This document shows positions 1,867-47,964 of a stretch of DNA of 64,000 bases, piece after piece. Location: positions 46,252,001 through 46,316,000 of the forward strand of contig OX597835.1 of NCBI GenBank assembly GCA_951406725.2, in the 5' to 3' direction. The notes beneath the pieces were generated by a model. That model made no database searches and was not told the DNA's origin. It saw nothing but the letters and a program-made list of their open reading frames with translations. The position numbers were made by a program, and so were the translations under genes. Each line of letters starts with the position of its first letter. The first letter of the stretch is position 1. The DNA comes from Octopus vulgaris (taxonomy: Eukaryota).

Positions 1867-3510
1867 CTATTTTTTACTTATTTACTTATACTGGTGTAGT
1901 TTTATACATACATATCTATCATTTATTTTTATTTAATTTTAATAATATATGAATACATATATACTAGTTTGTACTTATAATTATGTGTATAACCGTATTT
2001 ATTCCTTCGTATTTATTCCTTTTTATTTATTTTATCTCTTTTCATCTTAAGTCTTTATAATATAAAATTTATTTAAAATTTCTGTGATGTTCTCATAAGC
2101 GTTTACATTAATACTTCCCCTTCTATTCTTTAATGCCTAAACTGGTATATTATGGCACTATATTTATTAAGTTAATAAGTGACTTATTTATAATATTTAA
2201 ATTAATATATATTTTATATTTTATATTTTATAATTTAGCGTACTTAAAATCATAACAAACTTACGATAAACCTAACAACCGTATGTTTACTCTGCAACAA
2301 ACCGGTGTTATAAATTTTAAGTTACCCATGAAATAATTATCTGAATTAGTAACATACTGATATTTAAAAATATATTTATATCTAAATTAAATATTTTATA
2401 GAATGCATGGATGGTTCTTTTTTTGTTATTGAGGCTCAGTTATAATTTTGAAGGACTAAATGTTAGCATAGTTGCTTCCCTTTTTGTTTATCTAAGTGCT
2501 AGTTGTTGCTTGTGATTATGTATGTGTATAAGTGTATGTATATACATATAACTATGTGTGTATGTGCGATTGATCTGTAGATGCGTGTGTGAATATTGGC
2601 GTTCCCTGACTAACCAACCGTATAATTTTCTTTTGTGATTTAAATTTCAAACCAATAGCCAATCGAATTAATCTAAATTTTCTTTACCTAGTGGTCAGCA
2701 TTTCTTAACTCATAGTTATTTCGATCTTGAAAGGATGGACTTGGTGCTAACTTAACTGTATCTATTTTTATTAGTTTTTTATTATTATTATTATTATTAT
2801 TATTATTATTATTATTATTATTATTATTATTATTATTATTATTAATAGTAATTTTTATTAACGTTTATAGCTTTAGAATTTTATGAACTGTACCACGGAT
2901 TTAATTATTATTTTTCATCTCCATATGTGTTAGCCCAATTTTTTTAATTAAAAAAACAAACTATTAGCCAAATATGTATAATATCGGTACTTATTAATAT
3001 TAATATATACACTGTTATATATTTTGTTTTATTTTGTTCTGTTTACCTTCCTTTTTGTACAAATGTGTATTATATTATATAAGTGTAGCATTATGATGTA
3101 TAAGTTTTTATATTTTACATTTTTATATTTTTATATTTATATGTATATGATTATATAATATTTTTCACTATTATAACAAATTTAATTTAATTCTCTGAAG
3201 AGGCCGTGGGGCATCCTTGTTAATGCCTCATTTATACCTGCCTTTATGGCTTATAGGTTAAATGAGGTATGACTGTCCTCACTGCCGAAACAGCTGTCAG
3301 TTTTGATTTATTTGCATATTATATTTGAAATTTTTTACTTATATCTCTTTATCTTTTTATTTTTACTTTTACTATTACTGTATATCTCATTTCATTTTAT
3401 ATATTGCCTTTACTCATATGTAATGGTGTATTAAAGTATGGATTGAGTATCATCGGATAGTTGATGTTTTACTGATTTAAGTATGTTTCTCCATTCTCTA
3501 ATTTTGTAGT
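1867..3510 (+). mobile_element. AT-rich non-coding PLE segment (probable inverted pseudo-LTR/UTR) carrying a hammerhead motif
   Basis: Abuts the truncated RT, contains a plus-strand hammerhead (opposite strand to the ORF) and ends in a TA microsatellite. Inverted terminal segments are typical of PLE insertions. Confidence 0.55.
3193..3300 (+). ncRNA. Type I hammerhead ribozyme, minimal stem III, long stem II insert
   Basis: CT-CTGAAGA-GGCCGTG...CACTGCC-GAAA-C-AGCT-G-TC-AG; internal hairpin ATGCCTCATTTA/TAAATGAGGTAT; palindromic AGCT loop; stem I only 2 bp. Confidence 0.8.
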
Positions 3511-5489
3511 ATATATACATATATATATGTATATATGGGGATATATATATGTATGTATGTATATATGTGTGTTTATGTCTCTGTGTGTGCGCGAGCATGC
3601 ATGATACATGTATTCATTTATCTATATATAGGAGAACATTTTTGTGTTTCTCCTCGTGCTATTTTTATAATTTATATTCAATTTTAGAGTTGCATATTGT
3701 TTTGATCTCCTCCCGACTTTCATTTATAATAATAAAGCATGTTTTCTTCAATCTAACCCAGTTACGTAGCTGCTGCTGCTACGACTATTACTACTACTAC
3801 TACTACTATCACCACCACCACCACCACCACTACTACTACTACTACTACCTCTTTTATTACAACTACAATGTAAATTCAAATGATTGCTGTTGGCTACAGC
3901 CCCTAAAGAGAAACTTCGAATTTACAATCAACCATTGTAGATACGCACACACAGACTCATACACACATATATTGGCACGTGTAAGTATGAATATGTATAC
4001 ATATAAACATAAACGATTGTGTATATATATATGTGTGTGTGTGTGTGTGTGTGTGTCTTTGTATCTGTGTAAAATGTGTTTGTGCGCCTGTGTGTTTGTG
4101 AGTAATTATATATGTATACGTGAACGCATATACTGGAATTACTATTATTTTAAAATCAAACTCAGAGACAATTTTTTGGGGAGCATTTCGTGTTTTTATA
4201 AAAAAAAAACAACCAATATTCCTATCTGCTGTTGCTGTTATTCATTATTTCTTCATCATGTATTAGTTTATAATATGTATATGTTATTTTTTTTAAAAGT
4301 TCTACTTGTTAAAAGCAAACTTTGTACTGTTGAGTCACAATAGTCTGAAAATATACTTTTGTGCTAAAATATTCGATGTTGATCTGCAACCATGTAGAAA
4401 CTAGAAATATTCCTGCTATCAACATATTATAAATATCATACTATTGTCCAGGGAATAACTCATTCTAAAATAAAACTGTCTGCCTTCATATTTTACTAGA
4501 TCTTGCGTTTATCTATTAGTCGCCATTTTGAATTTTTTCTTACTCATTTTTTTTTTAATTTTTACTTTAGAGAAGCTGTCTTTTGTCAGCATTATTTTTT
4601 AAATAATTTTTATATATTTCCTTATTTATTATATATACTTTTTCTTGTATTCGTGATGCAGTTGTTGTAGATTCTTGCAGTTGTTGGAATATGTTATAGT
4701 TGTAATAGTAGCTTTTGTTTTTGTAGTCTTATCGAAACTAATACAGCCGTAGACATCACTATATGTGAGTTATTTCTGAGAAATATTAATGCTGCCTTCG
4801 GGGAACTTGATAAAACTTATAGAATAAATGAATAAATATGACTAGAGAAAGAAAAGCGAAAGAGAAACTAGACAACGATGGCGTAAACGAGAGAGATGAC
4901 TGAAATAGACAGAGAGATTTAAACACATAAAGGCTTTAGAGAGAAAGAGTTAGACGCAGTAATAAAAGATAGCAATCATAGAGTGCAGACGATATTTCCA
5001 TTGTAATTTACGTAACTACAAATCTGTCGTTAGATTAGATCCCTTGGCAAGAGATGAAGTCTATGCTGATCTCATGAACGACTCTGTAGAGATTCTTATT
5101 TCTCTCCTTCTTTCTTTCATTATTTAGTTATTTTATGCAGCAATTGGTAAAATATAGCGCCGTTGGATACAGGTTTCAAACAAGCCAACCATTTATTTAT
5201 TCACTGTAATTCTGATACTGAAAGTGATTCGAATGTGACAAGGAAGTATCTATAACTCGGTGCGGAAGAAATACTACAAGGTTCCTTTGTTCGGAAAACA
5301 TAAGTTCAAACATATCTTTTGGTTGGTGCTCGTGAAGAAAATAATACCCAGACATATATATCCTCACCCCACATACATACTGACATAGATACATACACAC
5401 ACATACACAAATGTATGTAGATACACAAACACACACACACACACATATATATATATATATTCGTTTCTATATATTTTATATTTATTTTT

Positions 5490-5941
5490 TTCTTTTATTC
5501 TTTCAGTCGTTTGACTGCGGTCATACTGGAGCACAACTTTTAGCGAAAAAATATCGATCCCACAACTGTAAGCCTATTTGTAAGCCTAGTACTTGATCTA
5601 TCAGTCGTCTTTGCTGAACTACTAAGTTACAGGGACGTAAGCACATCAATATCGATTGTAACCGATGGGGGGGGATAGACACACAAGTACATACATAGAT
5701 ACATACATAAATACACACACACACACACACACACACACACACACACACACACATATATATATATATATATATATATATACACACACACGATGGTCTTCTT
5801 TCAGTTTCCGTCTACCAAATCCACTGACAAGTCTTTGGTCGGCCTGATTCTAAAGTAGAAAACATTAGCCCAAGGTGCCACGCAGTGCTACTGAACCCGG
5901 AACCATGTAGTTAGGAAGCAAGCTTCTTACCACACAGCCAG
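5490..5941 (-). mobile_element. tRNA-derived SINE family A
   Basis: Minus-strand head TGGCTGTGTGGTAAG...GGTTCAGT (A/B-box-like), internal CA/TA microsatellite, tail ...CTCCAGTATGACCGCAGTCAAACGACTGAAA; similar to copies at 7409, 8747, 46550 and 51873. Confidence 0.85.
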
Positions 5942-6415
5942 TCCGCAAGCACAAACACATACGCATACACATAGACATGCTAGAATTAGTTGTTTAAACC
6001 TTGAAGCTCGAAATTGATGAAGCTATACATAAAACCGTATAGACTATTTCGTTAAAGAACTCTTTGGACAAGTCGGAAAAGTTGGGAGCCACGGAGACCC
6101 CTGACGTTTTCTAACCAAACCGGTTTCAAGCCAACTATACTGCGCGTTCTTATTTATATCTTTACCTATTTCGCGTTAAAAATAAAATATTCTAGTTATT
6201 TCAAGCTCTCTAAAAGCTCACAAATTCACACGCGCGCGCGCGCACACACATACACATACACACATAAACAAAGAAACATATATATATTCACAACTGGGTG
6301 ACTGAATACACAACGAGTCATTAAGGTCACACATGGGTACACTGCCTTCTATAGACTCCAGATACAAACGAATTGCATGCATGCATGTGTGTTTGTGTAT
6401 GTATATATATATATA

Positions 6416-46549: not shown

Positions 46550-46913
46550 TCATTTACTCTTGTACTTATTTCAGTCATTTGAGTGCGGCCATGCTGCAGC
46601 ACCGCCTTTAGTTATACAAATCGACCACATGACTTTTTCCTTGTAGGCCTAGTACTTATTCTATCGGTAATTTTTGGGCCGAACCGCTAAGTTACGCTTG
46701 TCATGTGATAGGGGGGGGGCACAAACACAGACACGCACACACACACATATATGACGGGCTACTTTCAGTTTCCGTCTACCAAACCGACTCACAAGTTTTT
46801 GGTCGGCCCGCGCTATAGTAGAAGAGACTTGCCCAAAGTGGCATGCAGTGAGACTGAACCCGGGACCATGTGGTAGGGAAGCTAGCTTCTTACCACTCAG
46901 CCATACCTACACC
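46550..46913 (-). mobile_element. SINE family A
   Basis: Full head and tail match family A. Confidence 0.88.
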
Positions 46914-46979
46914 TAAAAGAAATAGAGCTACGGATGATTTTATCTGGGGTGCTAAAGGTTCCAGCAGCTCGCCTTGTAT

Positions 46980-47521
46980 ATTTTTTGTCAACTTATTTTT
47001 CCCGAGGCACCCGAGGATAGCGTAAAAACCTATTTTCAGCCATAGCTTTTAGCCATAAAAAATATCAGCCATATATTTTTGACGGCGTCTAACAAAAAAA
47101 GATAAAGAAAAGTGGAAGAACGAAAGACACAGTGAGAGAGGGAGAGAGAGAATAAGTGACGACGTTCATAAAATATAAAATGTAAAATGTTTTTTTTTCT
47201 TAAACTCGATATATAGTGTTCAAATTCAGGATGATTTTGAAAGACACTATATTTTATAATCATAGTATATATACTTTCTAACACAACAATTACAATATAC
47301 TTATTTTGAATCATTTATTATTTTTTAAATCGTTCATCTTTCTCCTCCTCCTCTCTCTCTCACACATTACTTCGTGTGCGAAAGAGTTTTGTTTTTCTTT
47401 TACGCCGAGTAAAAAAGTGTTTTGTTGAGAGACGATATTACTTAGTTTGGTTTGAAATAAATAACTTGATTAGCTTAATAATCGTAACTTAATCCCGAGC
47501 AAGGCTGGGTTATACTGCTAG
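46980..47521 (+). mobile_element. Non-autonomous Helitron-like element, intact 3' end
   Basis: Sub-terminal hairpin CCCGAGC-AAG-GCTGGG (47494-47509), then CTAG|T at 47518-47522. Confidence 0.8.
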
Positions 47522-47964
47522 TATATATATATATATATTTATATATATATGTATAAGAAAATGAGATGACAATGTAATAAATGATTATCTTATGAACTTC
47601 ATCAGCTTACAGCTGTTTCTGCTATGAGATGCAGTGAACTCATTATTTTGTGGCCGAGTAACACTTTATAGATTCACTAGGGTGTTAAACATGAAGTGCA
47701 ATATATTTGGGAAAATCGTGTATACTTTCATACACACACATATACACACAGACATATACACACACACATATATAAGTTTGCATGTATGTAATTATTCAGT
47801 TCATTTCAGATTTCTTGACAATAGAGAAAGAACCACTTTCTAACCTAGATCCAAGACTCCTTCATTGGCATTTCAGCATTAATATCAGGGTATCTTTGTT
47901 TGTATGTATGTATGTATGTATGTATGTATGTATGTATGTTTGTATGTATGTATGTATGTATGTG

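What the first reader, a model, noticed from the sequence alone, without database searches (positions are those of the whole stretch)
3193..47690. Dispersed, multi-family population of minimal hammerhead ribozymes in non-coding inserts
Seen: hammerhead motifs at 3193-3300, 6513-6550, 6824-6858, 23424-23506, 27561-27598, 27804-27841, 28506-28547 and 33541-33633, plus partial ones at 46405-46475 and ~47605-47685. Their stems are unrelated in sequence, but each has a self-complementary stem III region (AGCT, ATAT, GGCC, CATG or ACGT). Known: PLEs and metazoan retrozymes carry minimal type I hammerheads thought to cleave as dimers. Inference: about 10 motifs from 6 or more families in 64 kb, mostly in 100-600 bp inserts within TA microsatellites, point to a large unannotated system of ribozyme-bearing PLE-dependent elements. 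The Naiad-like RT/GIY-YIG element at 1-1866 is the kind of enzyme that could mobilise them.
Basis: partly seen in the sequence, partly recalled or inferred. Interest (0 to 1): 0.85.

Follow-up and report, generated by a model that had tools for sequence, protein, structure and literature searches.

The report
Penelope retroelement ends with mini-hammerheads
The ten ribozyme-like motifs are real but are mostly the cut-off tail ends of ordinary Penelope-type jumping genes; the one surprise is that the commonest family (an estimated 60,000 copies) carries a changed catalytic-core letter that likely slows self-cutting yet did not stop it spreading.

Summary
Observation confirmed: all ten stretches belong to hammerhead-bearing repeats, and a strict descriptor finds 4 in the window against a mean of 0.05 in shuffles, and 21 per random Mb against 0-2. 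They fall into seven families. The interpretation needs correcting. Four families (6 motifs) run, in longer copies, into Penelope-like (PLE) RT/GIY-YIG coding sequence, so they are mostly 5'-truncated or inverted pLTR ends, as published by Cervera & De la Pena 2014. The window's element is Hydra-type, not Naiad, and owns only the 3193 motif. One old family (28506) looks retrozyme-like, with a loop-II pseudoknot. The scan reported the same kind of thing before in another genome (e1-7882047). The new part: the most abundant family (6513, 27561, 27804; about 59,000 copies) has U at core position 6 in 97 of 101 copies. Across three subfamilies only the free position 7 changes while the flanks diverge. 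A sister family carries U4C and G17 subfamilies. This suggests selection keeps the motif but not fast catalysis. Cleavage is untested.

The parts
1..1864 (-). 5'-truncated Hydra-type PLE body: RT (1279-1864) then linker and C-terminal GIY-YIG endonuclease (3-308); the element continues about 2.85 kb left of the window, with a sense-strand copy of the hammerhead
   Evidence: 99.6% identical to the full-length 5.57-kb unit in L230; sense hammerhead in L031; motifs RWR, DKT, CxCX5C
1865..3512 (+). Inverted copy of the same PLE's 3' UTR/pLTR, ending at (TA)n
   Evidence: 99.3% identical to the element's 3' end in L031
3193..3300 (+). pLTR hammerhead of the Hydra-type family: canonical core, 2-bp stem I, long stem II, AGCU palindrome
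   Evidence: identical copies 5.57-5.6 kb apart flanking the ORF in L230 and L231
6416..6620 (-). Family A: 205-bp 3' stub of a Neptune-type PLE; hammerhead 6513-6550 with U6 core (N7=C)
   Evidence: longer copies run into RT/GIY-YIG
6721..7283 (-). Family B (sister of A): 5' leader joined to 3' UTR of a second Neptune-type PLE; hammerhead 6824-6858 with A6, G17 and a broken stem II
23257..23723 (+). 3' stub of a second Hydra-like PLE with a short inverted piece (23257-23334); intact hammerhead 23424-23506, AUAU palindrome
   Evidence: same sequence as the commonest form (13 of 30 copies); longer copies reach a GIY-YIG frame
27430..27598 (-). Family A stub; hammerhead 27561-27598 with U6 (N7=A)
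27614..27873 (-). Family A stub; hammerhead 27804-27841 with U6 (N7=U, U17)
28353..28727 (+). Old, about 340-nt retrozyme-like unit; hammerhead 28506-28547 with 6-bp stem I, 4-bp stem II and a predicted loop-II pseudoknot in the family
33250..33689 (-). Old PLE 3' stub with hammerhead 33541-33633 (GGCC palindrome); an inverted piece follows at 33678-33888
   Evidence: Hydra-like RT/endonuclease beside some copies
46405..46520 (+). Stub of the 47605 family, truncated inside stem II (no CUGANGA box); 3' end approximate
47549..47750 (-). Stub of the same family with a decayed core; the family majority has an intact hammerhead with AGCU palindrome

Best explanation
Six of the ten motifs belong to four families whose longer copies join Penelope-like RT/endonuclease genes, and the other four likely come from three more Penelope-type or Penelope-dependent families, so these are mostly the leftover 3' ends of Penelope-like retrotransposons. 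Mechanism: each element's GIY-YIG endonuclease nicks (TA)n and its RT copies the RNA from near the 3' end (from the literature). Most copies stop early, leaving 100-600 bp stubs, often with an inverted second piece (shown). The hammerhead lies about 100 nt (family A) to 500 nt upstream of the 3' end (shown), so even short stubs keep it. Its stem III is only a palindrome, so it would cleave only as a dimer or with protein help (inferred from published PLE ribozymes). The full-core copies span the cleavage site with sequence on both sides, so the copied RNA was uncut or re-joined there (inferred). Family A's U6 core likely cleaves slowly (my odds about 0.7 for 10-fold or more slower), which would cost nothing if uncut RNA is the template.
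For: 3193: inverted copy of the element's own 3' end; full units with a hammerhead in each pLTR around RT and C-terminal GIY-YIG. Family A: fixed 3' end and variable 5' end in 30 loci; 5 of 30 upstream-selected loci show the GIY-YIG motif and several reach RT. Family B: L304 has two hammerheads 2.6 kb apart around RT/endonuclease sequence 45-57% identical to A's. 23424: 4 of 20 loci have Hydra-like endonuclease upstream. 33541: inverted copy within 200 bp of a Hydra-like RT in L303, and endonuclease in 2 of 3 further 10-kb loci, against Hydra-like hits in 7 of 100 random ones. Inverted and truncated pairs abound in the 47605 family. ESM Atlas neighbours (0.95-0.96) are eukaryotic clusters in which a minority to half of members carry RVT_1 or GIY-YIG. 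Anatomy matches the published min-HHR consensus and PLE insertion structure. In vitro, a PLE inserts equally well with a dead hammerhead (PMC11167929 passages).
Against: Pfam found no family in 4 of 4 PLE frames or in the two window frames, and the endonuclease had no PDB sequence match, so clade calls rest on motifs and Atlas neighbours, without a tree. No coding partner was found for 46405/47605 (0 of 50 loci of 3 kb) or 28506 (0 of 15 loci of 3 kb, 0 of 3 of 10 kb). No full-length copy of families A, 23424 or 33541 was recovered. None of the three near-complete Hydra-type ORFs seen is uninterrupted. No cleavage or expression was shown.
Confidence: 0.9

Rival explanations
1. The motifs mark a separate system of short non-autonomous ribozyme elements (retrozymes or SINE-like) that borrow a PLE enzyme such as the one at 1-1866.
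For: The 28506 family has no ORF and occurs as 331-350 nt direct tandems in 3 of 15 loci, with covarying stems and pseudoknot. In family B, 10 of 23 loci have two same-strand hammerheads 351-687 nt apart without an ORF, and the window copy shares its internal junction with L275.
Against: Families A, B, 23424 and 3193 have their own coding parents. A stubs have ragged 5' ends. The B spacing is variable, not a fixed unit. The window's element carries only the 3193 hammerhead.
Confidence: 0.1
2. Family A's motif is a fully active hammerhead variant in which U6 is tolerated in the dimer or when bound by the element's protein.
For: All other core positions are kept and N7 takes all four bases, the pattern expected of a catalytic core. 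A PLE hammerhead has been shown to need protein help.
Against: A natural A6C variant cleaves at under 0.1 per min and A6 changes are described as damaging (PMC3088659 section 8). U6 is predicted to pair with A15.1 in a rod-like monomer fold. Loop II and the stems are as invariant as the core, and the sister family tolerates U4C and G17.
Confidence: 0.3
3. The motifs are chance matches in low-complexity DNA.
For: Half of the window copies fail a strict descriptor; no Rfam hammerhead model appears among the 150 best of 503 window matches or at gathering score in 7 family loci.
Against: 21 against 0-2 per Mb in shuffles; family majorities are intact hammerheads; 11 pairs with two-sided changes against 5.2 in shuffles for 28506.
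Confidence: 0.01

Closest known systems
Minimal hammerheads (min-HHR) of metazoan Penelope-like elements (Cervera & De la Pena 2014, PMC4209133; read parts 1-2 of 4 of the text and parts 1-2 of 3 of the supplement)
   Same: Type I topology, palindromic or absent stem III, G10.1-C11.1 pair with an extra base before it (families A, B), location in pLTRs, thousands of solitary copies in several families per genome.
   Different: Family A has U6, whereas all 56 representatives in their Fig. S3 have A6 (their descriptor fixed the core, so it could not have found U6). The density here (about 59,000 strict hits estimated) exceeds their 2,000-9,000 per genome. Several families have very long stem II extensions.
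Hydra clade of C-terminal EN+ PLEs (Craig et al. 2021, PMC8557442; read sections 6 and 11, passages, one supplement search)
   Same: C-terminal GIY-YIG, DKT, RW[K/R], CxCX5C linker, (TA)n targets, hammerhead present, inverted 5'-truncated copy.
   Different: The unit is 5.57 kb rather than under 3 kb, with a long Asn-rich stretch between RT and endonuclease and a 3' UTR over 2 kb.
Neptune/Nematis-type PLEs (same paper)
   Same: CX4CxxC linker before a C-terminal GIY-YIG in family A; (TA)n insertion.
   Different: U6 core (A), U4C and G17 subfamilies (B); clade not placed on a tree.
Metazoan non-LTR retrozymes (Cervera & De la Pena 2020, PMC7229834; passages read)
   Same: 28506 family: about 340-nt ORF-less tandem unit, 6-bp stem I, 4-bp stem II, palindromic stem III.
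   Different: Copies are about 70% alike and short (1-2 units); tertiary contact is predicted to be a 6-bp pseudoknot; circular RNA not shown.
PLE hammerhead variants cleaving as dimers (Lunse, Weinberg & Breaker, cited in PMC6765202; the paper itself was not held)
   Same: Per the review's passages: short palindromic stem III, dimer cleavage, low rates.
   Different: Could not check whether it lists U6 cores.

Membership tests
PLE minimal hammerhead | Core CUGANGA ... GAAA ... UH | tested here: met
   Met in window copies 3193, 23424, 28506, 33541 (6824 has G17) and in the family majority for 47605
PLE minimal hammerhead | A at core position 6 (family A: 6513, 27561, 27804) | tested here: not met
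   U6 in 97 of 101 flank-anchored copies, A6 in 1; 61 of 64 and 0 of 64 in a stem-anchored set
PLE minimal hammerhead | Type I topology with palindromic, monomer-unstable stem III | tested here: met
   self-dimers favoured by 5-17 kcal/mol in 10 of 10 (no shuffle control)
PLE minimal hammerhead | Located in the pLTR/3' end of an RT+GIY-YIG element | tested here: inconclusive
   Met for 4 of 7 families, likely for 33541, not found for 28506 and 46405/47605
PLE minimal hammerhead | Self-cleavage as a dimer | not testable with these tools
   needs an in vitro assay
Naiad clade | GIY-YIG N-terminal to RT; no canonical hammerhead | tested here: not met
   Endonuclease is C-terminal and a hammerhead sits in both pLTRs
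Hydra clade | C-terminal EN, RWK, DKT, CxCX5C linker, (TA)n target, hammerhead | tested here: met
   RWR, DKT, CxCX5C and YIG in L230
Hydra clade | Generally under 3 kb | tested here: not met
   5.57-kb unit
Hydra clade | Phylogenetic placement of the RT; absence of CCHH | not tested
   no reference sequences were available from a tool
Neptune/Nematis-type PLE | CX2-5CxxC linker before a C-terminal GIY-YIG (family A) | tested here: met
   CX4CxxC then YIG in L298 and L299
Neptune/Nematis-type PLE | Phylogenetic placement | not tested
   no tree built
Non-LTR retrozyme (28506 family) | ORF-less 170-400 nt tandem unit with canonical type I geometry | tested here: met
   331-350 nt tandems in 3 of 15 loci; 82.6% of cells paired
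Non-LTR retrozyme (28506 family) | Expressed as circular RNA | not tested

The most novel reading that the evidence does not exclude
The genome's most successful PLE lineage has fixed hammerhead cores that should be catalytically crippled (U6 in about 59,000 family A copies; U4C and G17 in subfamilies of its sister), while selection froze the rest of the 37-nt motif. The PLE 'ribozyme' would then be kept mainly as a recognition structure for the element's protein, or as a deliberately slow cutter. Core-fixed searches would then miss a large class of variant PLE hammerheads in other animals.
Probability: 0.4. Interest if true: 0.6.

Novelty: new variant of a known kind. Interest (0 to 1): 0.36.

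Why it matters
The finding as written is ordinary: PLE minimal hammerheads scattered as truncated ends have been described since 2014. What adds value is a natural experiment on an open question, namely what PLE hammerheads are for (called unclear in PMC8557442; dispensable for insertion in vitro in PMC11167929). Here sister families with A6, U6, C4 and G17 cores all amplified, which gives a ready panel for cleavage and binding assays. It also warns that descriptor searches fixing CUGANGA would miss 9 of the 21 strict hits per Mb in this genome.

Tried and rejected
Rfam: the 150 best of 503 window matches were microsatellite hits to miRNA and one viral UTR model, all below gathering score (353 rows not shown); 0 gathering hits in 7 family loci. 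Pfam and PDB sequence searches missed the PLE proteins. Run search: no RNA holder listed. Laying four runs kept as contigs on the family A stub showed the family in runs of four coded organisms, with depth peaking over the hammerhead. It listed no variant even at position 7, which is known to vary, so it says nothing about U6, strand, ends or cleavage. One search used a mis-registered structure string and was replaced. In one search the family B distance counts were contaminated by A copies and were dropped. One false alignment (L155:2039) was dropped from the 20 copies, and L153 was entered as its window equivalent. The window's 10 family hits against 2.0 expected was rejected as evidence of local enrichment, because the families were defined from the window. 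Walking upstream of the 47605 family showed a further conserved stretch beyond an internal (TA)n, but no loci could be cut, so its parent is unresolved. Literature: 'hammerhead ribozyme'+'Octopus', 'A6U', 'inactive pLTR' and U6 core strings (listings only) showed no report of a U6 PLE hammerhead. An octopus repeat annotation (PMC13282606, passages) has 0 mentions of ribozyme or hammerhead. The Lunse et al. paper and supplements of other papers were not seen and may list such variants.
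Full report
Setting. The window lies in G000, a 2.8-Gb, 227-contig genome, is 36% GC and is full of microsatellites. An octopus-like animal is my guess from composition, not a tool result.

Observation. All ten stretches are present. A structural descriptor with a canonical core finds only 23424, and 3193 with a 2-bp stem I; allowing one mismatch adds 6513, 27561 and 27804, all with U at position 6. 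With position 6 set to A/U (a choice made), the window has 4 hits against a mean of 0.05 in 100 local dinucleotide shuffles. One hundred random 10-kb stretches gave 21 palindromic-stem-III hits against 0-2 per shuffle. The stretches were drawn from 22 contigs and only within ranges known from earlier hits, so extrapolations are rough: about 59,000 strict hits (95% range 36,000-90,000), about 59,000 family A and about 22,000 family B copies. All 10 motifs lie within 300 bp of a (TA)4 run, against 47% of random positions.

3193 family. The flank left of the window holds the element's 3' end with the same hammerhead in sense orientation. Window 1865-3512 is an inverted copy of that end, joined to the truncated RT at 1864, the arrangement described for PLEs (PMC8557442 section 6). 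The 40 scored copies are 98-100% identical. [quoted passage not shown] These are the Hydra-clade marks.

Family A (6513, 27561, 27804). Copies share a fixed 3' end at (TA)n and ragged 5' ends. In 59 of 83 the hammerhead ends 90-109 nt before the TA tract. Walking upstream leads through a low-complexity 3' UTR into GIY-YIG (5 of 30 loci show the motif) and RT with a CX4CxxC linker: a Neptune/Nematis-type PLE. Family B (6824) is its sister. L304 has two hammerheads 2.6 kb apart around RT/endonuclease sequence 45-57% identical to A's. Ten of 23 loci hold two hammerheads 351-687 nt apart with only leader and 3' UTR between, which I read as deletion derivatives that could dimerise in cis.

Other families. 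23424: a young family with frequent inverted pieces; 4 of 20 loci have a Hydra-like endonuclease upstream. 33541: old; an inverted copy abuts a Hydra-like RT in L303, and 2 of 3 other 10-kb loci have the endonuclease, against 7 of 100 random loci, so a link is likely but not shown. 46405/47605: PLE-style truncated and inverted pairs with a 3' tail, no coding partner in 50 loci. 28506: about 70% identical copies, ORF-less, direct tandems of 331-350 nt in 3 of 15 loci and inverted pairs in 2. On 19 aligned copies a 6-bp stem I, 4-bp stem II, palindromic stem III and a 6-bp pseudoknot between loop II and the strand after stem I give 82.6% paired cells and 11 pairs with two-sided changes, against 5.2 in shuffles (0 of 500). 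The structure was derived from these sequences, and each two-sided change in the pseudoknot is a single cell. This family resembles a decayed non-LTR retrozyme.

The core variants. Anchoring on the 3' flank rather than the ribozyme, 97 of 101 family A copies have U6 and 1 has A6, while position 7 is C 52, A 25, U 16, G 7 (the set includes 30 loci found with a subfamily-1 query, and 8 of 109 rows were dropped for poor coverage or identity). An independent stem-anchored set without those loci gave 61 of 64 U6 and 0 A6. Three subfamily majorities differ at 1 of 37 motif positions (position 7) but at 10 of 91, 25 of 88 and 17 of 88 flank positions (Fisher p 0.18, 0.0006, 0.02; not independent). 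Some U7 could be CpG decay of C7. So the motif is conserved in the source lineage with U6 fixed, but loop and stems are as fixed as the core, more than catalysis needs. In family B, 8 of 18 copies have C4 and 3 of 18 have G17. In the literature, all 56 published min-HHR representatives have A6 and U4, and one has G17; a phage A6C variant cleaves at under 0.1 per min; a viroid U4C variant is slow in vitro but viable. ViennaRNA predicts that U6 pairs with A15.1 in a rod-like monomer fold, but two of three A6 family B copies also mis-pair their cores, so this is weak.

Mechanism. Shown: family membership, coding parents for four families, truncation and inversion, TA association, U6 fixation. From the literature: endonuclease nicking and reverse transcription from the 3' region; dimer-only, slow cleavage of min-HHRs; in a lizard PLE, insertion unaffected by dead hammerheads and cleavage needing the protein. 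Inferred: the template for these stubs was uncut or re-joined at the 3' hammerhead, so slower cleavage is free or helpful, and U6 likely slows it. Untested: any cleavage, expression or binding in this organism; the run search and read-laying were uninformative.

Comparison and verdict. The population is a further genome's worth of PLE minimal hammerheads (PMC4209133), and an earlier report of this scan reached the same reading in another genome (e1-7882047). I found no report of a U6 PLE hammerhead, but could not read Lunse et al.. Verdict: real, largely known, with one abundant core variant worth assaying. Interest 0.36.

Noticed in passing
window 61522-64000 (+): LINE with an APE-type endonuclease ORF (Pfam Exo_endo_phos_2, E 4e-11) running off the window, preceded by broken ORF1-like frames.
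   Followed up: no
window 20821-21285 (-) and 55181-55663 (-): Fragments resembling the restriction-like endonuclease end of R2/R4-type LINEs (label recalled from memory; Pfam gave no hit).
   Followed up: no
window 11718-12119 (-) and 42459-43780 (-): An RVT_1 fragment (E 4e-6); separately, broken frames resembling an L1/Tx1-type endonuclease and a zinc-knuckle protein (labels recalled).
   Followed up: no
L050, L126, L068, L070, L065, L081, L089: At least six further hammerhead families in the random megabase, including two copies 563 nt apart in L081 with a 10-nt palindrome.
   Followed up: no
L230:3037-5914; window 309-1010: The Hydra-type ORF has an Asn-rich stretch of about 280 residues between RT and endonuclease, and each of three near-complete copies is split by a frameshift after the RT although the family is 98-100% identical.
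   Followed up: partly
window 28506-28560: The window copy of the 28506 family has two two-sided changes in the predicted loop-II pseudoknot relative to the family majority.
   Followed up: partly
L232:5315-5385: Another hammerhead-like core with an AGCU palindrome but no clear stem I, in a different repeat.
   Followed up: no
whole window: Rfam mir-297, mir-466 and mir-3149 matches are TA/TG microsatellites, all below gathering score.
   Followed up: yes
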